DNA of 55,764 bases from Candidatus Moranbacteria bacterium RIFOXYA12_FULL_35_19. Lineage in GTDB: Bacteria > Patescibacteriota > Minisyncoccia > Moranbacterales > UBA2206. The translations under genes and the position numbers were made by a program. Location of the stretch: NCBI GenBank assembly GCA_001784805.1, contig MFSE01000013.1, positions 1 through 55,764 on the forward strand, in the 5' to 3' direction. Positions 4,553 to 55,764 of the stretch are shown piece after piece; position 1 is the first letter of the stretch; each line of letters begins with the position of its first letter. The notes under the pieces were generated by a model. The model searched no databases, was not told the DNA's origin, and saw only the letters and a program-made list of their open reading frames with translations.

Positions 4553-4650
4553 AAAGTAGTTTTTAGAAATTGGAAAATAGTTCAGGAAAACAGAAATTAG
4601 AGATTGGATTATTTCAATTTTCTATTTTCTAATTTCTTGAACTAATATCT
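4553..4650. repeat. Intergenic word-hairpin, TTCTAATTTC family, copy 1
   Basis: Shares GGAAAATAG, AGTTCAGGA and TTCTAATTTC (4627-4636) with copies at 11214-11335 and 50004-50105. Confidence 0.6.
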
Positions 4651-4694
4651 TTTTTCTTTATCACTTTTTTCTACTTTCGATTTTATTTATATAT

Positions 4695-6936: not shown

Positions 6937-6964
6937 CGGCAGGCACCACGATGGGCGCCTGCCG
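6937..6964. terminator. GC-rich hairpin between convergent genes
   Basis: CGGCAGGC-ACCACGATGGGC-GCCTGCCG, an 8-bp stem preceded by an A-run. It is part of a 34-nt repeat that recurs at 9310-9343. Confidence 0.55.
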
Positions 6965-7426: not shown

Positions 7427-8281
7427 ATGAGCCTAGAAAATAACCTAAAATCAATTGGATTAGAAGAAAAAGAAGCGCAAGTCTATCTCGCTACTCTTGA
7501 ACTTGGACCAACAAACATTCAAAATCTAGCCAAGAAAGCTGGGATCAAGCGTAGCACTGTCTATGAGATACTACGAAATCTCAAAAACCAAGGCCTTATT
7601 TCCGAAGCTATGCAAGGAAAAAGAAAACTAATCATCGCTTCTTCACCTGACAAACTCAAAAGGAATATCAAAGAAAAAGAAAATTTACTAAATCAAATTT
7701 TGCCAGAGCTAAAATCACTCGACAACGCCGGACCGATCAAACCAAAAATCACTTATTATGAAGGCAGAGAAGGACTTCGCGAAATTTACATGATTGCGCT
7801 GGAAGCGAAAAACAAAAGAGCGGATTGGGTTTCACCTATTCAATCCGTCGTAGAAACAGTTGGAGAAGATTTTTTGGAAAAATATGTCGAAACAAAAAAA
7901 AGAATGGGTTATTGGATTCGTTCCCTTCACATCACTAGTCGCCAAGTATCCACCTACAAATATCTTGATCCAATAACTTTCAAAAAAACTTTGCGTGATG
8001 TTAGATTTTCACCGCAAGACATAGACATTCCAAACACAATTGCAATGTGGGATAATAAGGTAGCTATCATCAGCACTCAAAAAGAAGGTTTTGGATTTAT
8101 AATCGAAAGCAAAGATTTTTCAATCTCAATGAAAATGTTTTACGAATTACTTTGGAACATCAGTAAACCCTATGGCGATATGAATTTTGAGAACAAAAAT
8201 AAAAACGAGGAGAATAAATCCAGCACTATTAACAAAGTGCTGGGCAAGGACGACGACCTAGATTATTGGGCGAAGCAATAA
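7427..8281 (+). CDS. TrmB-family transcriptional regulator, paralog 1
   Basis: N-terminal wHTH EKEAQVYLATLELGPTNIQNLAKKAGIKRSTVYEILRNLKNQGLI plus a TrmB-like C-terminal domain. Confidence 0.8.
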   Translation: MSLENNLKSIGLEEKEAQVYLATLELGPTNIQNLAKKAGIKRSTVYEILRNLKNQGLISEAMQGKRKLIIASSPDKLKRNIKEKENLLNQILPELKSLDNAGPIKPKITYYEGREGLREIYMIALEAKNKRADWVSPIQSVVETVGEDFLEKYVETKKRMGYWIRSLHITSRQVSTYKYLDPITFKKTLRDVRFSPQDIDIPNTIAMWDNKVAIISTQKEGFGFIIESKDFSISMKMFYELLWNISKPYGDMNFENKNKNEENKSSTINKVLGKDDDLDYWAKQ

Positions 8282-8436: not shown

Positions 8437-8483
8437 CACTCTCACATTTGTGCATATGCACATTTTTGAGAATAGTGCTATAA
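8437..8483 (+). promoter_or_regulatory. TGCATATGCA palindrome motif, copy 1 (putative operator)
   Basis: CTCACATTTGTGCATATGCACATTTTTGAGA with a 14-bp perfect palindrome TGTGCATATGCACA. It overlaps a TATAAT-like box (GCTATAAT). Confidence 0.5.
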
Positions 8484-8545: not shown

Positions 8546-8590
8546 CTCTCATTTTTGTGCATATGCATAATTTTGAGACAATAACACAAA
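8546..8590 (+). promoter_or_regulatory. TGCATATGCA palindrome motif, copy 2 (putative operator)
   Basis: CTCTCATTTTTGTGCATATGCATAATTTTGAGA, a direct repeat of copy 1, just upstream of the ATG at 8595. Confidence 0.5.
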
Positions 8591-11213: not shown

Positions 11214-11335
11214 GTCAAAAGGAAAATAGATAATAGCTCAAGAAAAAAGATAATAGAAAGAAGATTTAGTTATTCTAATTTCTATTTTCCAATTTCCTAA
11301 ACTATTTTCCAATTTCTAATTAACAATTTTCTACA
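11214..11335. repeat. Intergenic word-hairpin, TTCTAATTTC family, copy 2
   Basis: GGAAAATAGATAATAGCTCAAGAAAAAAGATAATAG faces TTCTAATTTCTATTTTCCAATTTCC. TTCTAATTTC lies at 11273-11282. Confidence 0.6.
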
Positions 11336-13702: not shown

Positions 13703-13838
13703 ATTTATGGTAGGCTCGTTTTATATATCATACTTCAAGTATACCATAAATAATACAAACAACAATTCTTTGAGGTCGCGTCCGGAATTTTTATCTGGCA
13801 TAGTCAGAGAACCGGAGTAAAGGGTTTTGTCTCGCTAC

Positions 13839-13869
13839 GCGAGATCTGGCATAGCCAGACAGACCTACC
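13839..13869. repeat. Tandem mini-hairpins (TCTCGC-TAC-GCGAGA, TCTGGC-ATA-GCCAGA)
   Basis: GTCTCGCTACGCGAGATCTGGCATAGCCAGAC. Related to the 34-bp palindrome at 14243-14276. A further copy TCTGGCATAGTCAGAGA lies at 13794-13810. Confidence 0.65.
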
Positions 13870-14242: not shown

Positions 14243-14276
14243 GGTCTGGCTACGCCAGATCTGGCGTAGCCAGACC
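14243..14276. repeat. Perfect 34-bp palindrome
   Basis: GGTCTGGCTACGCCAGA|TCTGGCGTAGCCAGACC. Each half is itself a 6-bp-stem hairpin. Confidence 0.8.
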
Positions 14277-20026: not shown

Positions 20027-20959
20027 CTATAAAATATGAGCCTTGAAATCATCTGGCAACTCAATTTCGAATTTAAAATTCTGACCGTTTAAATTAAATT
20101 CGATCTTTTTAGCGCAAAGCAAATGTCGAACAATATTTTCTTTTGCTTTCATATTTTTTAGCCGATATTTTTCATCTCCTAAAATTGAATGACCAATCGA
20201 AGAAAGATGAATTCTAATTTGATGCATTCGACCAGTTTTCGGTTTTACTTCTACTAATGAATAGTTTTCAAATTCTTGCAATACTTTATATTCTGTCACG
20301 GCTTCACGAATTTTAGTTTTCGTTTTTGCTCTGGCTATTGTTTGTTTTTTATAATCTGCTGATCGCGCCAATGGCGCATCAATCAAACCTTTTTTATTTT
20401 CCAATTTTCCATACACTAAAGCCCAATATGTTTTTTGAATTTCTCGATTTTTAAATTTACTTTTAAGCACTTCAAATGTTTTTTGATTTCTCGCGACAAG
20501 CATTATCCCGCTAGTATCCTTGTCCAACCGATGCACTATCCCGGGACGATTTTCTGGTTCATCTCCGACTTTTTTTATTTCCGGAAATTTATAAATTAAA
20601 CCATTAACCAAAGTGTCTTGTTCTTTTTTTGCACTCGGATGAACTTGCAACCCCGCCGGTTTATTTATCACAATAATATTTTCATCTTTGTAGATTATTT
20701 CAAATTTAATTTTAGAGCTTGAAATTATTTCTTTTTGTTTCATGCTATATGTTTCATGTTTCATGACTTCAATCGCATCATTCTCTTTTAAAATATAGCT
20801 CGGTTTAACTGTTTTATTATTCACGGTGATATTCCCCGATTTAATATTTCTAATAATTTCCCCGCGGGTAATTTTTTCATCATTCAAAAAAAATCCCTGC
20901 ATTAGGAATCTATCAACTCTTTGACCTGAATTTTCTTTTGTTATAATTATTTTTTTCAT
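20027..20959 (-). CDS. rluD: RluA-family 23S rRNA pseudouridine synthase (RluD-like)
   Basis: S4 domain, then HRLDKDTSGIMLVAR and GRMHQIRIHL motifs. Start set to the ATG at 20959 because the ORF-track extension overlaps tRNA genes. Confidence 0.85.
   Translation of the reverse strand: MKKIIITKENSGQRVDRFLMQGFFLNDEKITRGEIIRNIKSGNITVNNKTVKPSYILKENDAIEVMKHETYSMKQKEIISSSKIKFEIIYKDENIIVINKPAGLQVHPSAKKEQDTLVNGLIYKFPEIKKVGDEPENRPGIVHRLDKDTSGIMLVARNQKTFEVLKSKFKNREIQKTYWALVYGKLENKKGLIDAPLARSADYKKQTIARAKTKTKIREAVTEYKVLQEFENYSLVEVKPKTGRMHQIRIHLSSIGHSILGDEKYRLKNMKAKENIVRHLLCAKKIEFNLNGQNFKFEIELPDDFKAHIL
20737..20767. repeat. CATG-word element inside rluD
   Basis: GTTTCATGCTATATGTTTCATGTTTCATGAC encodes KHETYSMKQ. 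Near-copy of the intergenic 27200-27232. Confidence 0.6.
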
Positions 20960-22495: not shown

Positions 22496-22536
22496 TTTCG
22501 TACTTTCGTATTTCGTTTATTTCGTATTTCGTAAAA
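22496..22536. repeat. TTTCGTA-word repeat (half element)
   Basis: TTTCGTACTTTCGTATTTCGTTTATTTCGTATTTCGTAAAA. Same word family as 41713-42174, 44998-45085 and 48101-48147. Confidence 0.6.
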
Positions 22537-26868: not shown

Positions 26869-26956
26869 CATAGCAAATATGTCAACTATTCCGCGCGCTC
26901 TGCCTTTTTTATTTTGCATTTTTATTTTATACCCTAGTTTTCAACAACATCCCTTG

Positions 26957-26993
26957 TCTCACTTTTATGCATATGCACAAAGCTGATTATTCT
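26957..26993 (+). promoter_or_regulatory. TGCATATGCA palindrome motif, copy 4
   Basis: TCTCACTTTTATGCATATGCACAAAGCTGATTATT. Closely matches copy 3 at 9207-9242. Confidence 0.45.
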
Positions 26994-27199
26994 AATTTTT
27001 TTGGAAATACTTCAATTATCTCGGAAAGAATATCGTACACTCTTACTCTCTCATTAAAGTTGAGCTTTTTGAAAAGCTTAGGCTCCACCCTAAAGCTCAA
27101 CTTTTTTACTTATCTACTCACATGACTATTGCACAGCATATTATAGAAAAGTCAGGACTATTTGATATTATAGTAAAGAATAGTCTTTTTTTGTTTTTT

Positions 27200-27232
27200 G
27201 TTTTATGCTATATGCTTCATGCTACATGTTTT
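27200..27232. repeat. CATG-word element, intergenic copy
   Basis: GTTTTATGCTATATGCTTCATGCTACATGTTTT, next to the TrmB stop codon. Confidence 0.55.
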
Positions 27233-27976
27233 TTATATCGCCACACTATTCCAAATCATATCAAAAATTGCCTTTTGCGCTTCGGCAAATTCGTGCGATT
27301 GGATAATAAAGCCTAATTTTTCCTCTTTCGTCGAAATCATCGCTACCTTGTCATCATAAATACAAACATATGGCTTGATAATAATTTCTTCTGGTACAAA
27401 CCGCACCTCGCGAAGTTCTTTGGCATGAATGATACCAGCTTCTCTTTCGGGTTTATATTTAAAAGAACGCAACGCTTGACTCTTGATTCCAGTCTTAATT
27501 CTTCTTTCTACAAAATCATCCACAAATTCCTTGCCCATCAACTCTTCCAAGTTAAAATCTGAAAGATAATATCTTTCTTTTTTCTCTTTATTGGTAAGAG
27601 CGTCTTCAAAAAGTTTTTTCATCCCACTGATATTTCGATAAATTTTAATTTCTGGTTGATAAATACCTGCGCCAAAAATATTTTTTAATTCAGGAATTGA
27701 ATATTGAATGATTTTTTTTCTTTCTTCTAGCAAATTATTCAGGCTAATTTCAGGATCTTCTGCTACGTAGAACTTTTTATTATCCAAAATAATTTGAACT
27801 ACCAAATTTTTTCCAAGCAAAGAATCCAAGCAATGATAAACGGTTGTTCTTTTGACTTCTGCCAATCTAGCAATCTGAGCCACAGTCGCTTTTTTGAGCT
27901 TTAAAAGAGCCAAATAAATGTCTTTTTCTTTGCCCAAAATACCTAAATATTCAAAATTTTTATCTAAATTTTCCAT
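27233..27976 (-). CDS. TrmB-family transcriptional regulator, paralog 5
   Basis: wHTH KEKDIYLALLKLKKATVAQIARLAEVKRTTVYHCLDSLLGKNLV. Confidence 0.8.
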   Translation of the reverse strand: MENLDKNFEYLGILGKEKDIYLALLKLKKATVAQIARLAEVKRTTVYHCLDSLLGKNLVVQIILDNKKFYVAEDPEISLNNLLEERKKIIQYSIPELKNIFGAGIYQPEIKIYRNISGMKKLFEDALTNKEKKERYYLSDFNLEELMGKEFVDDFVERRIKTGIKSQALRSFKYKPEREAGIIHAKELREVRFVPEEIIIKPYVCIYDDKVAMISTKEEKLGFIIQSHEFAEAQKAIFDMIWNSVAI

Positions 27977-30683: not shown

Positions 30684-32264
30684 CTATTCTACCCAATACT
30701 TCTTCTTCATTAATTCTTCCTCCTCTTTTTTTTCTTCTTCAATTTTTTTCTTAGCCATCACGCGAAGATCGTTAAGATCTTTTTTATTTAAAGCTTTCGC
30801 CAAATTTAATAAATCTTTTTTATTATTCAGTTTTTGATCATCAATCACCTCGGCTAGCATCACATCCAAGATTGCCCCGATTTTTGGTCCGGGTTGGATT
30901 TTTAAATCTTGAATTAGATCATTGCCATTAATTGCAAGCTGTTTAACTGAAATGGCATCATGCGAAACTTTTTCTACCATGAATTTGAAATGGCGCAGTT
31001 TGTATGGCACGGCTTTGGCCACGCCTGAACCCAACCGATCAGCAATTCGTACATCGATTAAATCATTGATATTTTCCACGCCAACTTTTTGCACTACCCG
31101 ACGCACACCTGATTCACCCACTTCATCTATGTTGTAGTAGAACATATGATTTTTCACAAGCATCACAGTTTTCTCAATAATTTTCCGAGGATATTTCATC
31201 CGTTCCAAAATTTTCTCCACCATTTTTGCCCCAACATATTCGTGCGAATAGAAAGTTGCCATTTCTCCCTCGCCTCTTTTTGATTTCGGTTTTCCAATGT
31301 CATGCAAAAATGAAGCCAAGCGCACTTCCAATTTTTCTGACGGACATTTTTCCAAACTTGCAAGAAGATGGGCATAAACCGTATTGTATGGTCCAAAATA
31401 ATGATGACGGTTTTGTTTCACGCCAATAGTTCCCAAAATTTCAGGAATAAAATAATCGATCAATTTTGTTTCCATTAAAAGTTCCACGCCCTTGCTTGGA
31501 TTTTTTGAAAGAATTATTTTATCAAATTCATCTCTAATTCTTTCGATTGAAACATATTTTAGATTTTTAGCATTTTTCTTAATCGCCTCGAAAGTTTTTT
31601 CTTCAATCTCCCATTCGCCTTCCCCCTTCTCCTTTATAAGGAGAGGGTTGCCCGCCTGCCGGCGAGGCAGGAGGTGAGGTGTATTTCTTCCGAGCTGAAC
31701 AGCGAAACGGATCGCTCTCATCATCCGAAGCGCATCCTCATCAAATCTTTCCCCCGCCTCCCCCACCGCGCGAATTATTTTATTCTTAAGATCTTTTTGC
31801 CCGCTGAACAAATCGATAATTTCATATTTGTTTTTTGTTTCATATTTCATGTTATATGTTACATGAATTGCCATAGCATTCACCGTAAAATCTCTTCTCG
31901 AAAGATCTTCTTCCAAAGTTTTGGCAAATTTCACCTCGTCTGGATGACGCTTGTCAGAATATTTTGATTCAATGCGATATGTCGTTATTTCCACATTCGG
32001 CCCATCCCAATCTTTTTCTTCTACGCCCTCAATATATTTCAAAGGCAACATCACTGTCCCAAAATCATTTTCATATTTCCCATCCGGAAAAATTTTCAAA
32101 ATCTCTTTCGGCTTCGCATTAGTCGCCACATCCCAATCCTTCGGATCCGCTCCCAATAATAAATCCCTCACACATCCACCCACCACAAACGCCTCAAAAC
32201 CAGCCCCTTCGAGCTTTCCAATAACTTCTATTATATAATGTGGAAATTCTATTTTTTTAGTCAT
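30684..32264 (-). CDS. cca: CCA-adding tRNA nucleotidyltransferase with HD domain
   Basis: GGCVRDLLLG and RRDFTVNA head-domain motifs, then an HD domain (FLHDIGK). 12 of the 13 tRNA genes here lack an encoded CCA. Confidence 0.85.
   Translation of the reverse strand: MTKKIEFPHYIIEVIGKLEGAGFEAFVVGGCVRDLLLGADPKDWDVATNAKPKEILKIFPDGKYENDFGTVMLPLKYIEGVEEKDWDGPNVEITTYRIESKYSDKRHPDEVKFAKTLEEDLSRRDFTVNAMAIHVTYNMKYETKNKYEIIDLFSGQKDLKNKIIRAVGEAGERFDEDALRMMRAIRFAVQLGRNTPHLLPRRQAGNPLLIKEKGEGEWEIEEKTFEAIKKNAKNLKYVSIERIRDEFDKIILSKNPSKGVELLMETKLIDYFIPEILGTIGVKQNRHHYFGPYNTVYAHLLASLEKCPSEKLEVRLASFLHDIGKPKSKRGEGEMATFYSHEYVGAKMVEKILERMKYPRKIIEKTVMLVKNHMFYYNIDEVGESGVRRVVQKVGVENINDLIDVRIADRLGSGVAKAVPYKLRHFKFMVEKVSHDAISVKQLAINGNDLIQDLKIQPGPKIGAILDVMLAEVIDDQKLNNKKDLLNLAKALNKKDLNDLRVMAKKKIEEEKKEEEELMKKKYWVE
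31619..31683. repeat. GC-rich palindromic module block inside cca
   Basis: CCCCTTCTCCTTTATAAGGAGAGGG + CCCGCCTGCCGGCGAGGCAGG + AGGTGAGGT, the same modules as at 36087-36162. Encodes TPHLLPRRQAGNPLLIKEKGEG on the minus strand. Confidence 0.7.
31838..31868. repeat. CATG-word element inside cca
   Basis: GTTTCATATTTCATGTTATATGTTACATGAA encodes HVTYNMKYET. Confidence 0.55.
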
Positions 32265-35234: not shown

Positions 35235-37115
35235 ATGATGAGTTTAATTTCTAAATTTTGGAATAATTTCAAAAATCAACCAGACATTTGGTTCTTTTTT
35301 GGGTTTTTATTAACTTTTACGCTAAGTATTAGGAAAGTAGTGTTATACTTTCTAATCCAAGGAACTTTCAATGAATATTCCGGAGTATTTATCTACCTTT
35401 CAGATGTTTTTCTAATTTTAACTCTAGTTTTCTGGTTTATATCTATATTATGCAATGATTTTACTGTTTTGTCAAGGTATAGGTTGTGGATAAGTAGTGC
35501 TTTCCACAAGTTATACATATTTTTACCCCTATTTTTAGTTTTTCTTTCTTTTATATCAATATTATGGTCACCCAATCAGTCAATAGCACTTTTTCGATCA
35601 TTCAAGCTTTTGGAGTTTTATTTACTATATATTTATATTATTTTTAGATTTGCTCCACAATTGTTCCACCCGCCTCATCGGCGGACAAACGTGGAACAAA
35701 ATACACCTCATCCTAACCTTCTCCTTATTAAGGAGAAGGAACTTGCCCCCCTCTCCTTTATAAGGAGAGGGGCTGGGGGTGAGGTAGAAATTGTTCCACG
35801 TGGAACATTTAATGCTTTCTCTTGGATTATAATACTATCCGGTCTCTTTCAAGCCACAATTGGCATAATTCAATTTTTCCTGCAAACATCTGTTGGTCTT
35901 TTTTTCCTTAAAGAAAGCCTAATTTCACCAAACATCCTCGGGGTCGCCAAAATAATCTTAAATGGAGAAATATATATCCGCGCCTATGGCCTTATGCCAC
36001 ATCCTAATGTTTTGGGTGGATTATTGCTATTTTCTATTATTATCACATTATTATATAAAAAAATGTTCCACGTGGAACATCAACTGCCCCCCTCTCCTTT
36101 ACAAGGAGAGGGGCAGGGGGTGAGGTTAAGCGATGTTCCACGCCCGTCTGCCGGCGAGGCAGATGGAACAATTAAAGAAAAATATTATTCTATGCTAAAT
36201 TGTTCCACGTGGAACAATTGGATAATTGAAAATAATTGGTTTTTTAGGCTCATATTAGCTATTCAAATTTTAGCGCTAATTTTAACATTCTCAAAATCAG
36301 CCATAATTGGGCTATTAATTGCTTTAGCTTATATAATTGTTCCATGTGGAACATTCAATATTCCCTTCTTCTTTATAAGGAGAAGGGCTGGGGATGAGGT
36401 ATGCGATTGTTCCATGTGGAACATTTTTGGGCGGGTGGAACATTTGAAATTAATAATACTCTCGATCTTAATTATTTTAGTATCTATATTTATCATAATC
36501 AAACCCAATTTGAACTCTTTATTTTTTAACTCCTTCGATGAGCGCGTATTTTATCTAAATGTTCCACGTGGAACATTTGGGAGTGATCCAGTCTTAGGAA
36601 TTGGCGCAGGACAATCAGTTATAATGATGCAAAAATTTTATTCTCAAACTTTAGAATTCTGGCAATATCAGCCTATTCATAATGTTTTTCTGCTAATATT
36701 TAGCGAACTAGGATTGCTTGGGTTGGGATTATTTGTTTGGTGGTTATGGAAATTGTTCCACCCGCCTCATCGGCGGACAAGCGTGGAACAATTTAAAAAT
36801 TCACCTCATCCTAACCTTCTCCTTATTAAGGAGAAGGAACTTGCCCCCCTCTCCTTTATAAGGAGAGGGGCAGGGGGTGAGGTTAAAATTGTTCCACGTG
36901 GAACAATAGAAAATAATGACTACATATTACACAATAATAATACATATTTGTCAAGTGCTATATTTTCTCGATATTTTACCGGAATTCTTTTAGGCCTCAT
37001 TTTTATTATGCTTTTTGACCATTATATCTGGGATATCCAACAGGGAAGCCTCCTATTTTGGCTAACTGCCAGCTTTGTTGCTGGGATATGCAAAAAATAT
37101 TCCCTTCATAATTAA
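35235..37115 (+). CDS. O-antigen ligase/polymerase-like (Wzy_C) membrane protein with five in-frame repeat blocks
   Basis: Many TM helices. FSKSAIIGLLIALAYI, GIGAGQ and HNVFLLIFSELGLLGLGLF resemble O-antigen ligase family motifs. The ORF stays open across all repeat blocks. Confidence 0.6.
   Translation: MMSLISKFWNNFKNQPDIWFFFGFLLTFTLSIRKVVLYFLIQGTFNEYSGVFIYLSDVFLILTLVFWFISILCNDFTVLSRYRLWISSAFHKLYIFLPLFLVFLSFISILWSPNQSIALFRSFKLLEFYLLYIYIIFRFAPQLFHPPHRRTNVEQNTPHPNLLLIKEKELAPLSFIRRGAGGEVEIVPRGTFNAFSWIIILSGLFQATIGIIQFFLQTSVGLFFLKESLISPNILGVAKIILNGEIYIRAYGLMPHPNVLGGLLLFSIIITLLYKKMFHVEHQLPPSPLQGEGQGVRLSDVPRPSAGEADGTIKEKYYSMLNCSTWNNWIIENNWFFRLILAIQILALILTFSKSAIIGLLIALAYIIVPCGTFNIPFFFIRRRAGDEVCDCSMWNIFGRVEHLKLIILSILIILVSIFIIIKPNLNSLFFNSFDERVFYLNVPRGTFGSDPVLGIGAGQSVIMMQKFYSQTLEFWQYQPIHNVFLLIFSELGLLGLGLFVWWLWKLFHPPHRRTSVEQFKNSPHPNLLLIKEKELAPLSFIRRGAGGEVKIVPRGTIENNDYILHNNNTYLSSAIFSRYFTGILLGLIFIMLFDHYIWDIQQGSLLFWLTASFVAGICKKYSLHN
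35661..35807 (+). repeat. Composite palindromic element A1 (147 nt, 49 codons)
   Basis: GTTCCAC[21-nt hairpin]GTGGAAC, then CCTTCTCCTTATTAAGGAGAAGG, CCCCTCTCCTTTATAAGGAGAGGGG, GGGGGTGAGGT and TGTTCCACGTGGAACA. Confidence 0.85.
36063..36218 (+). repeat. Composite palindromic element B
   Basis: ATGTTCCACGTGGAACAT, then CCCCCCTCTCCTTTACAAGGAGAGGGGCAGGGGGTGAGGT, then GTTCCAC[GCCCGTCTGCCGGCGAGGCAG]ATGGAAC, then ATTGTTCCACGTGGAACAAT. Confidence 0.85.
36338..36442 (+). repeat. Composite palindromic element C
   Basis: Two TGTTCCATGTGGAACA palindromes flank CCCTTCTTCTTTATAAGGAGAAGGGCTGGGGATGAGGT. An inverted half-copy GGGCGGGTGGAACA follows. Confidence 0.8.
36558..36577 (+). repeat. Solo palindrome AATGTTCCACGTGGAACATT
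   Basis: 20-bp perfect palindrome encoding NVPRGTF. Confidence 0.8.
36753..36905 (+). repeat. Composite palindromic element A2 (153 nt, 51 codons)
   Basis: Near-identical to A1. It differs by a few substitutions and one 6-nt indel. Confidence 0.85.
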
Positions 37116-42140: not shown

Positions 42141-42174
42141 TTTCGTAATTTCGTATTTTTTCGTAGTTCGTAAA
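42141..42174. repeat. TTTCGTA-word hairpin arm (right arm around the GxxExxY gene)
   Basis: TTTCGTAATTTCGTATTTTTTCGTAGTTCGTAAA. Confidence 0.7.
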
Positions 42175-43321: not shown

Positions 43322-43657
43322 ATGAAAAAACCGGCAATCATGGTAAGATTGGGAGTAACCACCCACAAAAAACTGGTCGAATTGATTAAAAAAAATGCAG
43401 GAGGAGGACGGGAAATCAGTATACTTAAACATACTAATGATACCACCCTCATTATCATCACAAACTATTATCATAAACCGGCGCTTCGAGAGACCATCTG
43501 CGTAAAAGATACTATTATTTACGCATCAGAGATGATTGGCTTTCTTACTAATCTCTTGCTCAAAGCTAATCTGGCATTCGTTTATGAGCCAGAGCTTGAG
43601 ATGCAGGATTATCTTCAAGAACTGATCCGGAATTTCACTTTAAATCGTCAGCCTTAA
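43322..43657 (+). CDS. Hypothetical protein (111 aa)
   Basis: SD AAAGGAGA before the ATG. Confidence 0.45.
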   Translation: MKKPAIMVRLGVTTHKKLVELIKKNAGGGREISILKHTNDTTLIIITNYYHKPALRETICVKDTIIYASEMIGFLTNLLLKANLAFVYEPELEMQDYLQELIRNFTLNRQP

Positions 43658-44997: not shown

Positions 44998-45085
44998 TTT
45001 ACGAACTACGAAATGACCGAAATACGAAACATTTAAAATACCTTTCGTACTTTCGTATTTAGTATTTATTTCGTAGTTCGTAAAC
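44998..45085. repeat. Complete TACGAAA/TTTCGTA word-hairpin (empty version)
   Basis: TTTACGAACTACGAAATGACCGAAATACGAAAC, a loop of about 12 nt, then TTTCGTACTTTCGTATTTAGTATTTATTTCGTAGTTCGTAAAC. Ends 9 nt before the rpsA ATG. Confidence 0.75.
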
Positions 45086-48100: not shown

Positions 48101-48147
48101 TTCGAACTTTCGTATTTTCGTAATTTCGTTTTATTCGTAGTTCGTAA
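48101..48147. repeat. TTTCGTA-word repeat (half element) upstream of ftsH
   Basis: TTCGAACTTTCGTATTTTCGTAATTTCGTTTTATTCGTAGTTCGTAA. Confidence 0.6.
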
Positions 48148-48149
48148 TT

Positions 48150-50003
48150 ATGCAGAAGCTATTCAAAAACATCGGCATTGTCATCTTAATCTTCCTTTTT
48201 ATTTCCGGAATTTTCGTTCTTTACGGCAGTCCAACTGTTAAACCTGATGTTATTTCTCTTTCCACGCTAGCTCAACAAGTAAACGAAGGAAAGGTTAAAG
48301 AGATAAAAGTTGACACAAATAATCTTGATATCACGCTTAGCGACGGAAAAAAGGAAAAATCCACCAAGGAAACTAGCGCTGGAATAGTAGAAACACTCAA
48401 AAATTATGGAGTTGACAGCGCAAAAATTCAAAATGTAAGCATCGATATCCAAAGCGAATCAGGTATGACTTTTTGGCTAGGAACAATTCTGCCTTTTCTT
48501 TTGCCATTTCTTTTGGTCGGCGCTTTTATTTGGTTTATGTTCCGCCAAGCCCAACGAGGAAATAATCAGGCGTTATCATTTGGCTCTTCCCGCGCTCGCA
48601 TGACTGATCCAAAAAATAAAAATCAAAAAATTACCTTCAAAGATGTGGCTGGATCCAAAGAAGCTAAGGAAGAATTATGTGAAATTGTAGAATTTCTAAA
48701 AAATCCGAAAAAATTCTTGAATCTTGGGGCTAAAATTCCTAAAGGTGTTCTTTTACTTGGTTCTCCTGGAACTGGAAAAACTTTGATTGCCAAAGCAGTA
48801 GCCGGTGAAGCTAATGTACCATTTTTCAATATTAGTGGTTCAGAATTTGTAGAAATGTTTGTAGGCGTCGGAGCTTCACGAGTGCGCGATCTCTTCAAAC
48901 AAGCCAAGAAAAACTCACCCGCGATCATTTTCATTGATGAAATTGACGCGGTCGGAAGACATCGTGGTGCGGGGCTAGGTGGAGGACACGACGAAAGAGA
49001 ACAAACCCTAAATCAAATTCTGGTAGAAATGGATGGCTTTGACACCAACACCAATGTAATTATTATTGCTGCCACCAACCGTCCTGATGTACTTGATCCG
49101 GCGCTTCTTCGCCCTGGAAGATTTGACCGCCGAGTAACGATGGATTTGCCAGACATTGCTGAACGAGAAGAAATTTTAAAATTACATTCTAAAAATAAAC
49201 CCTTGGCCAAAGAAGCTGATTTGAAAAAAATCGCTCAAAGAACTCCTGGTTTTTCCGGCGCCGATCTTTCTAATCTTCTCAATGAAAGCGCTATTTTGAC
49301 TGCTCGAAGAAATAAAAAAATAATTTCTATGGACGAGCTCACCGAATCGATTGAAAAAGTTATCCTTGGCCCAGAACGAAGAAGTCGAAGAATTGATGAA
49401 GAAGAAAAGAAAATTATTGCTTACCATGAAGCGGGACATGCACTTTTGGCCGCCACTCTCAAAAACGCTGATCCCGTCCAAAAAATTTCTATCATTTCTC
49501 GTGGGTCAGCCGGTGGATATACTTTCAGCACCCCAGAAAAAGATAAGACTTTACATTCGAGAAATTATTTTATCGATGAACTTTCCGTTTTGCTTGGAGG
49601 ATATGTGAGTGAAAAATTGACTTTTGGCGATGTGACTACTGGAGCTTCTAATGATTTAGAAAGAGCCACAAATATGTCGCGAAGCTTGGTCACTCGCTAT
49701 GGAATGAGCGAGCTTGGACCACGTACTTTTGGGCACAAAGAAGAATTAGTTTTCCTTGGCAAGGAAATGCATGAAGAAAAAAATTATTCCGAAAAAACTG
49801 CCCAGGATATTGACCGCCAAGTTTCTCTTTTTATCGAAAATGCTTATCAAGTTGCTAAAAATATTTTGCAAGACAAAAAAGAATTGCTGGAAAAACTTTC
49901 CGCCACTCTTTTAGAAAAAGAAACAATTGAACAAGAAGAATTTAATGAAATTGTGGGGATAATTAAGAAAGAAGCAATAAGTGAAAAAGAAAATGGAAAT
50001 TAG
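48150..50003 (+). CDS. ftsH: ATP-dependent zinc metalloprotease FtsH
   Basis: Two N-terminal TM helices, Walker A GSPGTGKT, Walker [32 protein letters not shown], zinc motif HEAGHA. Confidence 0.95.
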
Positions 50004-50105
50004 CTCAAGAGAATAGATGATAGAAAAAAGAAAATTATTTATTCTTTTTTCTAATCTCAAATTTCTTGAACCATTTTCTAATTTCCAATAACTATTTTCT
50101 AAAAA
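50004..50105. repeat. Intergenic word-hairpin, TTCTAATTTC family, copy 3
   Basis: AGCTCAAGAGAATAGATGATAGAAAAAAG faces TTTCTTGAACCATTTTCTAATTTCC. TTCTAATTTC lies at 50076-50085. Confidence 0.6.
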
Positions 50106-53738: not shown

Positions 53739-55764
53739 TTATATTTTCTTAATTGGTGCAATTGAAGCGGAAAGTTTTTTAAGTCCTGATTTAGAAAATG
53801 CTACAGTGATTATATCCCCCGCGCTGGCGACAATCAAGCCATCACCAAAAACCTCGTGTCGCACTCTATCGCCATCCTTAAAACATGAGACATGAAGCAT
53901 GAAGCATGAAACATCTTTTTCTAAAACTTGTTTATTTTCACTACTTTTATTCTTGCTACATGTTTCATGCCTGCCTGTCCGGTAGGCAGGTTTCATGTTA
54001 TATGACTTCAGTAAGTGCGGTGGTATATCGTCCAGAAATCGACTTGGCGCATTAATTTGAGTAGAACCAAAAATATTTCTCATACGAGTAAAAAGCAAAT
54101 AAACTTTTTCCATTGCCCGAGTTACCCCGACATACATCAGCCGTCTTTCTTCTTCCATTTCACCGTCATCTAACATACTTCGGGAATGGGGCAAAATTCC
54201 TTCTTCCAACCCCGCGATAAAAACAATCTTAAATTCCAAACCTTTCGCGCTATGAAGCGTCATAAGATGTACTGCATCTTTCGCTTGGTCAATATTATCC
54301 GTATCAGAAACCAAAGCTACTTCTTCTAGAAATAATCTTAAACCCTCATTACTTTCATACTCGCTATATTTTTTGGCGACCGTCAAAAGTTCGCGTACAT
54401 TTTCATTTCTCATTTCTCCTTCCTCCGTTCCATCCATCAGAAATTTTTCATATCCTGATTCGCTATAAACTTTTTGAATGAAATCCGTAAGAATCAATTT
54501 TTCTTTAAGTTCACTCATTCTCTTAATAAATTCTGAAAACTTAACTATCGCATCAATTTTAGAAATTTGTATTTTATTTTTTGGAACCTGCCTGCCGGTA
54601 GGCAAAGTTTGATCATTAGAATTTGAAAATTCATTGGAAATTGCGAGGCCACAAGATATTAAATCTAAATTATTACTCCTAGCTATATTAATCCATTTTC
54701 CCAAAGTAATATCCCCGACGCCTCGCCTCGGTTCATTAATTATTCTTTCCAACGAAGTTTCGTCATTGAAATTGTTAATCAAACGCAAATAAGCAATTAT
54801 ATCTTTAATTTCTTTTCTTTGATAAAATTTCACTCCACCAATAATTCGGTAGGGAATAGAATTTCTAAGCATTGCTTCCTCAATCATCCGTGATTGCGCA
54901 TTGGTGCGATACAGCACCACAAAATCGGAAAACTTTAGTTTTCCGTCCTGAGCGCTTGCCTGCCGATGAGGCAGGAAAGCGAAGGACCCCATCCTATTAC
55001 CGCATAACTTCTTTATTTCACTTACGATAAACTGCGCTTCTTCTTTTTCATCTTCCGCTTCAAAGCTAAATAGCAAATGTCCGCTCTTATTATCCGTCCA
55101 AATTTTTTTGTCTTTGCGATTGATATTTTTAGAAATCACGCCATAAGCCGCGTCCAAAATGTTCTGCGTGGAACGATAATTTTGTTCGAGTTTTATTATT
55201 TTTGCCTCGGGATAATCTTTTTCAAAATCTAAAATATTTTGAATGTTGGCTCCGCGCCATGAATAAATTCCTTGCCAGTCATCGCCCACCACGCACAGAT
55301 TTTTATATTTTTGCGATAATAATTTTACCAAAAGATATTGCGCATAATTAGTATCTTGATATTCATCCACCATAATATATTGGAAAAAGTTTTGATATTT
55401 TTCCAAAACTTCTGGAAATTTTTGAAAAATCTTAACTGTGATCATCAAAATATCATCAAAGTCCAAAGCGTCTTGTTCCTTCAATTTTTTCTGGTAATTT
55501 AAATATATTTTTGCCACCATTTCTTCAAAATATCCGCCCACTCCCGCTAAAAAATCTTCTGGCCCAATTAGTTCATTTTTTGCTTTGGAAATTGCACCTA
55601 AGATTGTTTTAGGTTTAAATTGATCAATATTTATTTCCATTTCTTTCATCACTTTTTTTATCAGCGCTAATTGATCTTGATCATCAAAAATATTAAAGGA
55701 ACTTTCGTATCCCACCTTCTCAATTTCCCGCCTTAAAATTTTCACACAAATAGAATGAAAAGTC
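53739..55764 (-). CDS. pcrA: UvrD/PcrA-family ATP-dependent DNA helicase; 5' end beyond the window
   Basis: MVDEYQDTNYAQY, NYRSTQNIL, MTLHSAKGLEF and YVGVTRA motifs. The Walker A region is absent because the ORF runs to the window edge. Confidence 0.9.
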   Translation of the reverse strand, partial: TFHSICVKILRREIEKVGYESSFNIFDDQDQLALIKKVMKEMEINIDQFKPKTILGAISKAKNELIGPEDFLAGVGGYFEEMVAKIYLNYQKKLKEQDALDFDDILMITVKIFQKFPEVLEKYQNFFQYIMVDEYQDTNYAQYLLVKLLSQKYKNLCVVGDDWQGIYSWRGANIQNILDFEKDYPEAKIIKLEQNYRSTQNILDAAYGVISKNINRKDKKIWTDNKSGHLLFSFEAEDEKEEAQFIVSEIKKLCGNRMGSFAFLPHRQASAQDGKLKFSDFVVLYRTNAQSRMIEEAMLRNSIPYRIIGGVKFYQRKEIKDIIAYLRLINNFNDETSLERIINEPRRGVGDITLGKWINIARSNNLDLISCGLAISNEFSNSNDQTLPTGRQVPKNKIQISKIDAIVKFSEFIKRMSELKEKLILTDFIQKVYSESGYEKFLMDGTEEGEMRNENVRELLTVAKKYSEYESNEGLRLFLEEVALVSDTDNIDQAKDAVHLMTLHSAKGLEFKIVFIAGLEEGILPHSRSMLDDGEMEEERRLMYVGVTRAMEKVYLLFTRMRNIFGSTQINAPSRFLDDIPPHLLKSYNMKPAYRTGRHETCSKNKSSENKQVLEKDVSCFMLHVSCFKDGDRVRHEVFGDGLIVASAGDIITVAFSKSGLKKLSASIAPIKKI
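53880..54010. repeat. CATG-word inverted repeat with an embedded 21-nt GC hairpin, inside the helicase gene
   Basis: AAAACATGAGACATGAAGCATGAAGCATGAAACATC (53880-53914) faces GCTACATGTTTCATG[CCTGCCTGTCCGGTAGGCAGG]TTTCATGTTATATGACTTC (53955-54010). Confidence 0.75.
54945..54987. repeat. GC-rich layered hairpin inside the helicase gene
   Basis: GTCCTGAGCGCTTG-CCTGCC-GATGA-GGCAGG-AAAGCGAAGGAC encodes GSFAFLPHRQASAQD. A degenerate copy lies at 54587-54607 (LPTGRQV). Confidence 0.7.

What the first reader, a model, noticed from the sequence alone, without database searches (positions are those of the whole stretch)
53880..54987. Helicase gene carries three separate repeat insertions
The three insertions are:
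- 53880-54010, a CATG-word inverted repeat plus a 21-nt GC hairpin (about 45 codons: ..MKPAYRTGRHETCSKNK...VSCFMLHVSCFK..). It lies between the helicase core and the C-terminal GDRVRH..FG.G domain.
- 54587-54607, a degenerate CCTGCC hairpin (LPTGRQV).
- 54945-54987, a layered hairpin with a CCTGCC-GATGA-GGCAGG core (FLPHRQASAQ).
All three are in frame. The peptides P-x-(R/G)-R-Q-(A/V) recur in cca (LPRRQAG) and in the ligase-like gene (RPSAGEADG, from the reverse reading).
Basis: partly seen in the sequence, partly recalled or inferred. Interest (0 to 1): 0.65.

Follow-up and report, generated by a model that had tools for sequence, protein, structure and literature searches.

The report
Hairpin repeats inserted in-frame in helicase
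A PcrA/UvrD repair helicase of an uncultured groundwater bacterium (Candidatus Moranbacteria) carries short, multi-copy, hairpin-forming DNA repeats in three surface loops, apparently read through as extra amino acids; this resembles the "selfish DNA inside genes" known from Rickettsia, but is built from 17-21-base units that also occur in many other bacterial phyla.

Summary
The gene at 53739..>55764 (- strand) is a PcrA/UvrD helicase of a Candidatus Moranbacteria genome (about 34% G+C).

- **Position.** All three segments lie where Geobacillus PcrA and most of 115 orthologs have short loops or a variable linker. These stretches are low-confidence coil in an AlphaFold model.
- **Insertion.** Each segment contains a CCTGCC...GGCAGG hairpin. 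Each hairpin is a clean 21-nt (7-codon) presence/absence difference against close orthologs.
- **Nesting.** Each hairpin sits inside an older repeat: a palindrome at site B, AATT-type "words" at site C, and a CATG-word inverted repeat at site D.
- **Other copies.** The same DNA modules recur in cca, in a Wzy_C-domain (O-antigen-ligase-like) gene and in intergenic DNA. They are read in different frames, so the recurring peptides are by-products of recurring DNA.
- **Wider distribution.** Some copies sit inside copies of themselves.

Best reading: REP/RPE-like palindromic repeats, translated and tolerated in permissive loops. How they spread is unknown. I rate this a new variant of a known kind. 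I found no description of it in the searchable literature.

The parts
53739..55764 (-). PcrA/UvrD-type SF1 helicase gene. The C-terminal 674 codons are in the window and the N-terminus runs off the window end. The cluster-representative full protein is P0001, 777 aa.
   Evidence: ORF. Pfam domains UvrD-helicase, UvrD_C and PcrA_UvrD_tudor. Match to 1pjr PcrA at E = 2.7e-169. Orthologs are named Candidatus Moranbacteria PcrA.
53882..53999 (-). Site D outer element: an inverted repeat built from CATG words. On the sense strand it reads ..CATATAACATGAAAC..CATGAAACATG.. on one arm and ..TTTCATGCTTCATGCTTCATG.. on the other. It forms most of the 2A-to-Tudor linker (SYNMK..HETCSKNK...SCFMLHVSCF).
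   Evidence: The fold pairs the arms (z -4.67). The element is shared with L002, L005 and L006. Related CATG-word modules lie at 20724-20765, 27180-27221 and 31824-31865.
53970..53990 (-). Site D inner hairpin: a 21-nt unit, CCTGCCTACCGGACAGGCAGG on the sense strand, translated PAYRTGR. It is unique to this lineage, perfect, and probably the youngest of the three.
   Evidence: It is a precise 21-nt gap in L002, L005 and L006. Fold z is -5.02. The exact 21-mer has at least 120 hits in metagenome contigs and 15 stretches in viral contigs.
54587..54607 (-). Site C hairpin, degenerate: CTTTGCCTACCGGCAGGCAGG on the sense strand, translated (T)LPTGRQ(V).
   Evidence: It matches 18 of 20 bases of the common 20-mer. 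It is shared with L001/P0003. Other orthologs show a 7-aa gap here (P0012 NSNDQ-------ISENK).
54608..54645 (-). Site C outer element: AATT-type word repeat, translated ISNEFSNSNDQ. It is of the same kind as the word repeats upstream of gene starts at 4613, 11273 and 50042.
   Evidence: Repeat families D2 and D11. Orthologs carry variable numbers of FQFPISNEFSNSNDQ words.
54945..54987 (-). Site B layered hairpin. The outer palindrome is GGTCCTTCG..CGCTCAGGAC and the inner hairpin lies at its dyad centre. Together they add 17 aa (MGSFAFLPHRQASAQDG) upstream of the VLYRTNAQSR block.
   Evidence: Fold z is -3.87. L002 has the outer palindrome only. L007 and 91 of 115 orthologs have neither.
54959..54975 (-). 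Site B inner hairpin, CCTGCC-TCATC-GGCAGG on the sense strand, translated LPHRQ. The net insertion against L002 is 21 nt.
   Evidence: It is shared with L003, L004 and L006, which carry a C>T change that would be a G-U wobble in the mRNA.
31655..31671 (-). Copy of the same hairpin family in the cca (CCA-adding enzyme) gene, translated LPRRQ. It lies next to a CCCTCTCC..GGAGAGGG hairpin at 31619-31647.
   Evidence: The Pfam head domain and RNA-binding domain hits are separated by the inserted stretch.
36135..36169 (+). Copy in the Wzy_C (O-antigen-ligase-like) gene: a 21-nt unit carrying TCTGCC-GGCGA-GGCAGA, inserted at the centre of a GTTCCACGTGGAAC palindrome.
   Evidence: Of 10 copies of the palindrome in this gene, 7 are empty and 3 are filled, each with exactly 21 nt.
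6937..6964 (.). Intergenic hairpin using the same GGCAGG/CCTGCC stem, in the opposite arm order. An A-run and a short T-run flank it, so it resembles a terminator.

Best explanation
The three segments are copies of short, GC-rich, palindromic repeat modules. These are multi-copy DNA of the REP / Rickettsia-palindromic-element kind.

My reading of how they got there and how they persist:
- They entered the helicase gene at the DNA level, in layers. Older repeats came first: a palindrome at site B, AATT words at site C and a CATG-word inverted repeat at site D.
- A 17-21-nt CCTGCC...GGCAGG hairpin then landed inside each older repeat, adding exactly 21 nt each time. It landed at the dyad centre of the host palindrome at site B and in a mini-hairpin loop at site D.
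- Each addition is a multiple of three, is free of stop codons, and lies in a surface loop or an inter-domain linker. The additions are therefore simply translated as extra coil and tolerated. They are passengers, not functional helicase parts.
- Turnover is fast. Orthologs that are 80-88% identical carry different module families, or none, at the same loops.

Shown here: multi-copy DNA identity, precise presence/absence, loop positions, nesting, and use of different reading frames.

Inferred: that the inserts are translated, that they are neutral, and that spread is by a hairpin-recognising activity acting in trans that prefers single-stranded hairpin loops, including those of the element itself.
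For: - **Gene identity and insert positions.**. Against PcrA 1pjr, site B is a 17-aa gap, site C lies in a variable loop aligned to PcrA ~435-456, and site D lies in the linker.
- **Ortholog lengths (115 orthologs).** Site B is bimodal: 91 have 5-9 aa and 24 have 17-29 aa. Sites C and D are highly variable.
- **DNA alignments.** The gaps fall exactly at the hairpins: 21 nt at sites B and D in the DNA alignments and a 7-aa gap at site C in the protein alignment. The outer repeats are present without the inner hairpin in L002, L005, L006 and P0012.
- **Structure model.** The insert stretches are coil with pLDDT below 50 (residues 359-377, 484-496, 664-729) between confident helices and strands.
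- **Multi-copy and non-random.**
- **DNA, not peptide, is what recurs.** The same hairpin is read as LPHRQ/LPTGRQ and as PAYRTGR. GTTCCACGTGGAAC is read as VPRGT, FHVEH and CSTWN within one protein.
- **Centre-of-palindrome insertion.** Site B, L001 site B, and 3 of 10 GTTCCACGTGGAAC copies filled with exactly 21 nt.
- **Self-nested copies.** L032, L048, L063, L099 and L317.
- **Flanks of copies elsewhere are enriched for palindromy.** A perfect complementary run of 6 or more occurs in 8% against 1.2% of controls. MFE of -20 or lower occurs in 22% against 5% (p = 1e-5).
- **Abundance of the specific sequence.** The exact 20-mer and 21-mer each give at least 120 hits across many phyla or metagenomes. 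Viral contigs give 12 to 35 stretches, against 0 for a hairpin with rearranged stems.
- **Compensated stem variants.** CCGCC-TCATC-GGCGG against CTGCC-TCATC-GGCAG, and TCTGCC..GGCAGA against CCTGCC..GGCAGG.
- **Mosaic states within a tight clade.** One element (HPELVSGSQEIPDQVRNDK) sits at two sites of one ortholog.
- **Assembly.** Contigs from separate public runs reproduce the sequence.
Against: - No transposase or other mobilising enzyme was identified, and none was looked for genome-wide.
- No target-site duplications are visible.
- Only 5-6 CCTGCC-type copies lie in 55.8 kb, so this is not a high-copy element here.
- Translation of the inserts is inferred from frame preservation, not observed. 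The only RNA runs from the same site are tiny and hold none of the sequence, and no proteomics is available.
- Presence/absence among orthologs could partly reflect recombination between lineages or precise deletion rather than new insertion. P0002 lacks the site B hairpin although its nearest neighbours have it.
- Nesting in other palindromes is significantly enriched, but it holds for only a minority (about 10-25%) of copies elsewhere.
- Recurrence of different elements at the same loops in separate lineages could mean targeting rather than mere tolerance.
Confidence: 0.7

Rival explanations
1. The inserts are kept because they are useful to the host. They might act as protein linkers or interaction loops of the helicase. 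Alternatively they might act as nucleic-acid signals inside the gene, for example as mRNA hairpins that pause ribosomes at domain boundaries or stabilise the transcript, or as DNA sites for a structuring or repair protein, as REP/BIME sites bind gyrase and IHF in E. coli.
For: - The same few loops and linkers are occupied again and again in different lineages.
- Stems show compensated changes.
- Mismatches in intragenic copies are C>T on the sense strand, which would be G-U wobbles in mRNA.
- Hairpins of the same stem occur as terminator-like intergenic structures (L064).
Against: - 91 of 115 orthologs, and Geobacillus PcrA, lack the site B insert altogether.
- Different, unrelated module families occupy the same site in close relatives.
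- The same DNA is read in different frames, so no peptide is conserved.
- Copies of the 20-mer inside long ORFs show no orientation bias relative to the ORF: 12 sense against 10 antisense.
- The site C copy is decaying.
Confidence: 0.12
2. The segments are not transposed. They arose in place in hypervariable loops through replication slippage (the words), snap-back or template-switch synthesis at quasi-palindromes (the inverted arms), and gene conversion between similar palindromes. The shared sequences would then reflect a common mutational process plus ectopic copying during repair of breaks at hairpin tips.
For: - The outer elements are tandem 4-8-nt words followed by their inverted complements (site D; the hairpin itself reads as (CCTG)n(CAGG)n).
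- There are no target-site duplications.
- Additions sit at dyad centres, where hairpin-tip breakage would occur.
- Flanks next to the site B hairpin extend its stem (CTT..AAG) as if filled in symmetrically.
Against: - Identical asymmetric 20- and 21-mers (loops TACCGGCA and TACCGGACA) occur with unrelated flanks in at least 120 places each, across phyla or metagenomes, while a hairpin with rearranged stems occurs 0 times in viral contigs.
- Self-nested copies are whole units that include the loop.
- The same composite (FQ[IF]PTLPTGRQVS) occurs at different sites of different orthologs.
- These observations require copying of a defined unit, not local growth.
Confidence: 0.12
3. The inserts are not part of the protein. 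They would be removed from the mRNA as a very small intron, or skipped by the ribosome (programmed translational bypassing, as I recall it for GC-rich elements in Magnusiomyces mitochondria).
For: They are GC-rich hairpins in an AT-rich gene, which is the look of bypass elements and of mitochondrial GC clusters.
Against: - Every insert seen in coding context is a multiple of three and stop-free in the host frame. There are six 21-nt units in the window, and 24 different site B alleles in orthologs. Removal before translation would not require this.
- No match to any Rfam family, intron families included, overlaps the inserts.
- No take-off or landing codon pairs were noticed on reading the flanks; no dedicated search was run.
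Confidence: 0.03
4. The inserts are an assembly or sequencing artefact at palindromes.
For: Metagenome assemblies can mis-join at repeats. Read depth over the repeat segments is raised because other contigs share them.
Against: - Contigs from separate public runs give the identical sequence: an X1 contig spans the whole region and an X8 contig spans 53739-54948, both with 0 differences.
- Orthologs from other studies share sites B and C with diverged flanks.
- The 20-mer occurs in cultured isolates such as Olivibacter oleidegradans CCM 7765.
Confidence: 0.01

Closest known systems
Rickettsia palindromic elements (RPEs; Ogata et al. 2000, as summarised in PMC10969869)
   Same: Both are palindromic repeats present many times in a small AT-rich genome. 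Both are inserted in-frame into unrelated housekeeping genes and are read as extra peptide at positions compatible with the protein fold.
   Different: - RPEs are about 150-bp units of ten families, described from Rickettsia species (PMC10969869).
- Here the units are 17-21 nt and stack into composites of 45-130 nt.
- They nest at the centres of other palindromes.
- The host is a CPR bacterium.
- The core hairpin is shared with many other phyla and with viral contigs.
REP / BIME / REPIN elements mobilised by RAYT (Y1, IS200/IS605-like) transposases (from my own knowledge of the field)
   Same: Both are 20-40-nt imperfect GC-rich palindromes in many copies and in mosaic combinations with other motifs. 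In non-CPR genomes the 20-mer is mostly extragenic: 21% lie in ORFs of 150 codons or more, against 78% of random positions. The common variants contain GTAG in the loop region. This is a lead only.
   Different: In this genome 5 of 6 copies are inside genes. No inverted doublets (REPINs) are seen. No RAYT gene was searched for or found. As I recall, REP sequences are usually species-specific, whereas this hairpin is identical across phyla.
IS1397/ISKpn1-type insertion into the loop of palindromic units (from my own knowledge)
   Same: It is a precedent for insertion aimed at the apex of a REP hairpin, which is the target preference inferred here.
   Different: Those are full insertion sequences that carry a transposase. 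Here the inserted object is itself only a 20-21-nt hairpin.
GC clusters of yeast mitochondria and 'byp' elements of Magnusiomyces mitochondria (from my own knowledge)
   Same: Both are short GC-rich palindromic mobile units in AT-rich genomes that sit inside protein-coding genes.
   Different: They occur in organelles. Byp elements are skipped by the ribosome and need not preserve the frame. Here all units preserve the frame and are stop-free.
MITEs of prokaryotes (Correia, ERIC, BOX, RUP; PMC10969869)
   Same: Both are small non-autonomous repeats that sometimes make in-frame fusions. The site D CATG-word inverted repeat of about 120 nt has the size and shape of a MITE.
   Different: No target-site duplications and no parent insertion sequence are evident. 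The arms are made of tandem words rather than defined terminal inverted repeats.

Membership tests
PcrA/UvrD SF1 helicase (the host gene) | UvrD-type N- and C-terminal helicase domains with the conserved SF1 sequence blocks, plus the C-terminal Tudor domain | tested here: met
   Pfam UvrD-helicase 3.2e-56, UvrD_C 6e-75 and PcrA_UvrD_tudor 9.3e-08. End-to-end alignment to 1pjr at E = 2.7e-169, with the conserved blocks (TFHS, VDEYQDTN, YRTNAQSR, TLHSAKGLEF, VGVTRA) aligned.
Rickettsia palindromic elements (RPE) | Palindromic repeat present in multiple copies, both in genes and between genes | tested here: met
Rickettsia palindromic elements (RPE) | In-frame insertion into unrelated housekeeping ORFs at positions compatible with the fold | tested here: met
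   Helicase, cca and the Wzy_C gene. The inserts are in loop positions by the PDB alignment and by low-pLDDT coil in the model.
Rickettsia palindromic elements (RPE) | Unit of about 150 bp, belonging to one of the described Rickettsia RPE families | tested here: not met
   The units are 17-21 nt and the composites 45-130 nt. The host is Candidatus Moranbacteria. Sequence similarity to RPE consensus sequences was not tested because none was on hand.
REP/REPIN-RAYT system | Imperfect GC-rich palindrome of 20-40 nt, repeated | tested here: met
REP/REPIN-RAYT system | Extragenic location | tested here: not met
   In the window 5 of 6 copies are intragenic. In non-CPR genomes most copies are extragenic.
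REP/REPIN-RAYT system | Inverted doublets (REPINs) and an associated single-copy RAYT gene | not tested
   No doublets were noticed in the window's repeat and hairpin listings, which were not a dedicated doublet search. Only 10 of the window's ORFs of 100 aa or more, plus the helicase, were scanned against Pfam, and none was a Y1 transposase. The rest of the genome is not available here.
MITE | Terminal inverted repeats plus target-site duplication, related to a parent insertion sequence | tested here: not met
   Inverted arms exist at site D. No direct duplication flanks any of the 21-nt units or the composites in the filled-versus-empty alignments. No parent insertion sequence was seen.
Self-splicing intron / intein / bypass element | Removal from the RNA or protein, so the frame need not be kept; recognisable catalytic RNA or intein domains | tested here: not met
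   No match to any Rfam family overlaps the inserts. All units are multiples of 3 and stop-free. Inteins (PF14890) occur in other PcrA orthologs but not in this gene.

The most novel reading that the evidence does not exclude
The CCTG/CAGG hairpin (CCTGCCTGCCGGCAGGCAGG and its TACCGGCA and TACCGGACA loop variants) may be a 20-21-nt mobile unit. That would be far smaller than any element whose movement has been demonstrated, to my knowledge. In this reading an as-yet unidentified hairpin-recognising enzyme spreads it across many bacterial phyla and their phages, and it integrates preferentially into single-stranded loops of other palindromes, including its own. In gene-dense CPR genomes it would end up inside essential genes, where it builds new protein loops layer by layer.
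Probability: 0.3. Interest if true: 0.85.

Novelty: new variant of a known kind. Interest (0 to 1): 0.62.

Why it matters
- **Selfish DNA in a streamlined genome.** Even the small genomes of CPR/Patescibacteria carry layers of repeat DNA inside essential genes. This inflates and diversifies protein loops on a timescale shorter than species divergence.
- **Practical consequences.** It affects annotation, homology search, protein length statistics and strain typing in metagenomes.
- **Protein evolution.** It offers a natural map of permissive insertion sites in PcrA/UvrD.
- **An open mechanistic question.** The core hairpin is shared by many phyla and by viral contigs, and it nests at palindrome centres, including in copies of itself. 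This raises a testable question: what activity copies a 20-nt hairpin into hairpin loops?
- **Literature.** I found no description of these sequences or of the peptides they encode in the searchable literature.

Tried and rejected
- **Rfam.** The whole window at gathering threshold gave only tRNAs. The helicase region at E <= 1 gave nothing on the inserts. A sub-threshold RF03531 match at 54082-54180 falls in conserved helicase coding sequence, not in an insert.
- **RNA evidence.** The only RNA runs from the same site are 2-3 Mb SOLiD libraries that hold none of the sequence. Transcription or splicing could not be examined.
- **Orientation bias.** The 20-mer shows no bias relative to long ORFs: 12 sense against 10 antisense. 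This argues against a strand-specific RNA role.
- **Is the hairpin always at the apex of a larger palindrome?** Only partly. Immediate perfect flanking complementarity of 6 bp or more is 7-fold enriched but holds for about 8% of copies. Strongly structured flanks occur in 22% against 5% of controls. The count of base pairs spanning the insert was not significant (p = 0.065).
- **Literature.** Searches for CPR palindromic or in-frame repeats, for the DNA words and for the peptides found nothing relevant.
- **Considered and rejected.**
  - CRISPR repeat: no arrays. From memory, the CTGCC/GGCAG stem resembles the type I-F repeat hairpin, which I take to be coincidence.
  - Diversity-generating retroelement target: I noticed no template/variable repeat pair or reverse transcriptase, but ran no specific search.
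  - Intein: absent from this gene.
  - Assembly artefact: rejected.
- **Lead not tested.** GTAG lies inside the loop of the common variants, and self-nested insertions can be written as lying immediately 5' of GTAG. This recalls the REP/RAYT signal, but the perfect-palindrome variant lacks it.
Full report
**What is there**

The finding lies in one uninterrupted minus-strand ORF, 53739..55745, which continues past the window end. It has Pfam UvrD-helicase, UvrD_C and PcrA_UvrD_tudor domains. It aligns end to end with Geobacillus PcrA (1pjr) at E = 2.7e-169. The nearest database proteins are PcrA of Candidatus Moranbacteria, a CPR/Patescibacteria lineage, at 64-86% identity. The window has about 34% G+C and comes from groundwater metagenomes. 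Contigs from separate public runs reproduce the region with no differences: one X1 contig covers all of it and one X8 contig covers 53739-54948. The sequence is therefore real.

**Check of the observation**

- CCTGCC-N3-12-GGCAGG occurs 3 times in the window against 0.00 expected. Two of the three are in this gene.
- Site D: a perfect 21-nt hairpin lies at 53970-53990, inside CATG-word arms that pair over 53882-53999. DNA fold z is -4.67 for the whole element and -5.02 for the inner hairpin.
- Site B: 54945-54987 folds as a three-layer hairpin (z -3.87).
- Site C: 54587-54607 is not significant as a fold on its own (z -0.76).
- The copies in cca (31655-31671) and in the ligase-like gene (36147-36163) are confirmed.

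**Are they insertions?**

- Against PcrA 1pjr, site B is a 17-aa gap between E342 and A343, just before the VLYRTNAQSR block. Site C lies in a variable stretch aligned to PcrA ~435-456, which I assign to domain 2B from memory. Site D lies in the linker to the Tudor domain.
- Among 115 orthologs, site B length is bimodal: 91 have 5-9 aa and 24 have 17-29 aa. At site C the modal length is 9 aa (range 7-46) and the query has 24. The site D linker ranges from 23 to 69 aa and the query has 41.
- An AlphaFold model (mean pLDDT 67.6, so moderate overall) shows the insert stretches as coil with pLDDT below 50. These are residues 359-377, 484-496 and 664-729 of the full protein, lying between confident helices and strands.
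- At the DNA level the window differs from L002, L005 and L006 at site D by exactly 21 nt, the hairpin itself. It differs from L002 at site B by a net 21 nt. At site C other orthologs have a 7-aa gap.
- One correction: at site D only the 7 hairpin codons are a demonstrable insertion. The CATG-word inverted repeat is this lineage's version of a linker that is always present.

**Layering**

- Each hairpin sits inside an older repeat that exists without it in a relative.
- L002 has the outer palindrome GGTCCTTCGACTTCGCTCAGGAC at site B, and the window has the hairpin at its dyad centre.
- L002, L005 and L006 have CATGAAAC-ATGAAAC at site D, and the window has the hairpin between the two CATG words.
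- L001 has a different outer hairpin at site B (the HPELVSGS family), again with a CCTG-type hairpin in its loop.
- The same rule holds in the Wzy_C-domain (O-antigen-ligase-like) gene. Of 10 copies of the palindrome GTTCCACGTGGAAC, 7 are empty and 3 carry exactly 21 nt at or next to the centre.
- The three helicase hairpins form an age series:
  - Site D is unique to this lineage and perfect.
  - Site B is shared by a subclade and near-perfect.
  - Site C is shared and degenerate.

**DNA, not peptide, recurs**

- The hairpin is read as LPHRQ/LPTGRQ at sites B and C and in cca, as PAYRTGR at site D, and as SAGEAD in the ligase-like gene.
- GTTCCACGTGGAAC is read as VPRGT, FHVEH and CSTWN within one protein.
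- The CATG-word module recurs in cca (TYNMKYETKNKY), at the N-terminus of a pseudouridine synthase and in intergenic DNA.
- The AATT words of site C are of the same kind as word repeats upstream of gene starts.
- The helicase's variable loops are thus filled with the genome's general repeat stock.

**Turnover**

- Within a tight clade (80-88% identity) the states at the four or five sites are mosaic.
- At site B alone there are several states: the GNRxGSF..AQDGK palindrome with or without the hairpin, the HPELVSGSQEIPDQVRND family, the IKCPSE..GHLMST family, or nothing.
- One ortholog carries the same element at two sites.
- A fourth site, in the N-terminal part of the gene outside the window, and a fifth site, used in 6 orthologs, behave in the same way.

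**Beyond this genome**

The order-of-magnitude expectation by chance is about one.
- The hosts include Bacteroidota (among them the cultured Olivibacter oleidegradans), Ignavibacteria, Chloroflexi, Planctomycetes, Omnitrophota, Nitrospirae and many CPR groups.
- The site D 21-mer gives at least 120 hits in metagenome contigs.
- In viral contigs the perfect palindrome, the 20-mer and the 21-mer give 35, 12 and 15 stretches. A hairpin with rearranged stems gives none.
- Outside CPR the copies are mostly extragenic: 21% lie in ORFs of 150 codons or more, against 78% of random positions. In CPR contigs half are inside long ORFs.
- Flanks are enriched for palindromy. Several copies are nested in copies of themselves.
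- One viral ORF whose C-terminal half looks like a cell-wall glucosaminidase (read by eye; no domain search was run) carries four or five in-frame LPTGQAG copies.
- Other hairpin families seen in the window, CCCTCTCC..GGAGAGGG and ATTCCGGA..TCCGGAAT, co-occur in these loci.

**Interpretation**

- The best-supported reading is that these are REP/RPE-like palindromic repeat modules. They entered permissive loops of the helicase at the DNA level, preserve the frame, and are translated as coil.
- Mobility of a defined unit is supported by several lines:
  - identical asymmetric units with unrelated flanks;
  - precise filled and empty sites;
  - self-nesting;
  - the same composite at different sites.
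- The mechanism of spread is not shown. I infer a hairpin-recognising activity acting in trans that prefers single-stranded hairpin loops. From my own knowledge, the precedents are RAYT/REP and insertion of IS1397 into REP loops.
- The rivals were weighed and are less well supported:
  - a host-beneficial function;
  - origin in place by slippage and template switching;
  - removal before translation;
  - an artefact.

**Comparison with known systems and novelty**

- The closest known case is the Rickettsia palindromic elements, which are about 150 bp and inserted in-frame in many genes (PMC10969869).
- This case works the same way but is not a member of that family. The units are 17-21 nt, they nest, the host is a CPR bacterium, and the core hairpin is shared across phyla.
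- It fits the size and shape of REP elements but not their extragenic location, and no RAYT gene was examined.
- Searches of the held literature found no description of these sequences.
- I rate it a new variant of a known kind, with moderate-to-high interest. Most of that interest comes from the cross-phylum, self-nesting hairpin rather than from the helicase itself.

Noticed in passing
window 35235-37115 (+): A 626-aa ORF with a Wzy_C (O-antigen ligase) domain is packed with in-frame palindromic modules. It holds 10 copies of GTTCCACGTGGAAC, of which 3 are filled with exactly 21 nt at the centre. It also holds several CCCCTCTCCTTTATAAGGAGAGGGG and CCTTCTCCTTATTAAGGAGAAGG hairpins, CACCTCATCC..GGGGTGAGG pairs, and a 110-nt composite present twice (35698-35807 and 36796-36905). 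All are stop-free, and the same palindrome is read in three frames.
   Followed up: partly
window 30684-32264 (-), modules at 31619-31671 and 31824-31865: The CCA-adding enzyme gene carries three modules in frame: a CCTGCC hairpin, a CCCTCTCC..GGAGAGGG hairpin (NTPHLLPRRQAGNPLLIKEKGEGE) and a CATG-word module (TYNMKYETKNKY). They lie inside or between the Pfam head and RNA-binding domains.
   Followed up: partly
Genome-contig loci L027-L146, metagenome loci from L159 on, viral loci L147-L158 and L279-L328: The 20- and 21-nt CCTG/CAGG hairpins occur in many bacterial phyla, in cultured Bacteroidota and in viral contigs. They are often embedded in tandem word repeats or at the apex of unrelated palindromes, including terminator-like stems (L064), and are sometimes nested in themselves (L032, L048, L063, L099, L221, L317).
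   Followed up: partly
L317 2955-3974 (-), viral contig IMGVR_UViG_3300038551_000082: A viral ORF whose C-terminal half looks like a cell-wall glucosaminidase (read by eye; no domain search was run) has an N-terminal region with four to five in-frame LPTGQAG/LPVGRQG copies of the 21-mer. Two of them are self-nested. The contig holds 6 copies in 28.8 kb.
   Followed up: partly
window 22497-22528, 42141-42174, 45044-45084, 48101-48148: TTCGTA-type word repeats (TTCGTAATTTCGTATTT...) sit immediately upstream of gene starts, for example ftsH at 48150. The same words flank the 20/21-mer in other genomes (L118, L184, L239). They appear translated as ANDAN/IRRFEDSH-type peptides at the N-terminal insertion site of PcrA orthologs.
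   Followed up: no
window 4613-4674, 11273-11334, 50042-50103: TTTCTAATTTCCAATTT word repeats lie just upstream of three + strand gene starts. They are the same kind of words as those forming the outer element of helicase site C.
   Followed up: no
window 13830-13859, 14243-14276, 43570-43593: Another hairpin family, TCTGGC-NNN-GCCAGA, includes a perfect 34-nt palindrome, GGTCTGGCTACGCCAGATCTGGCGTAGCCAGACC, in what appears to be intergenic DNA near tRNA-Cys.
   Followed up: no
window 8439-8471, 8546-8578, 26956-26988: Three copies of a palindrome centred on TGTGCATATGCACA lie in intergenic DNA near two genes for TrmB-like regulators (7427..8281 by eye; 27233..27976 by Pfam). They may be operator sites.
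   Followed up: no
PcrA orthologs P0009, P0043, P0047, P0107, P0109: Some Moranbacteria PcrA orthologs are 1096-1128 aa and carry intein domains (PF14890). The same gene therefore hosts inteins in some lineages and palindromic repeats in others.
   Followed up: no
full-length protein P0001 residues about 78-100 (outside the window), and orthologs at alignment A1 columns 650-690: There is a fourth insertion site near the N-terminus. In this lineage it reads DANDLTPSPSPYKGEG, from the CCCTCTCC..GGAGAGGG hairpin family. A fifth site, after TVAKKY, is used in 6 orthologs (PASTREDDRS..STRGG).
   Followed up: partly
window 54082-54180 (-): There is a sub-threshold Rfam match to RF03531, a Clostridioides difficile sRNA 'included into helicase gene' (42.9 bits against a gathering score of 65.2). 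It most likely reflects conserved helicase coding sequence.
   Followed up: no
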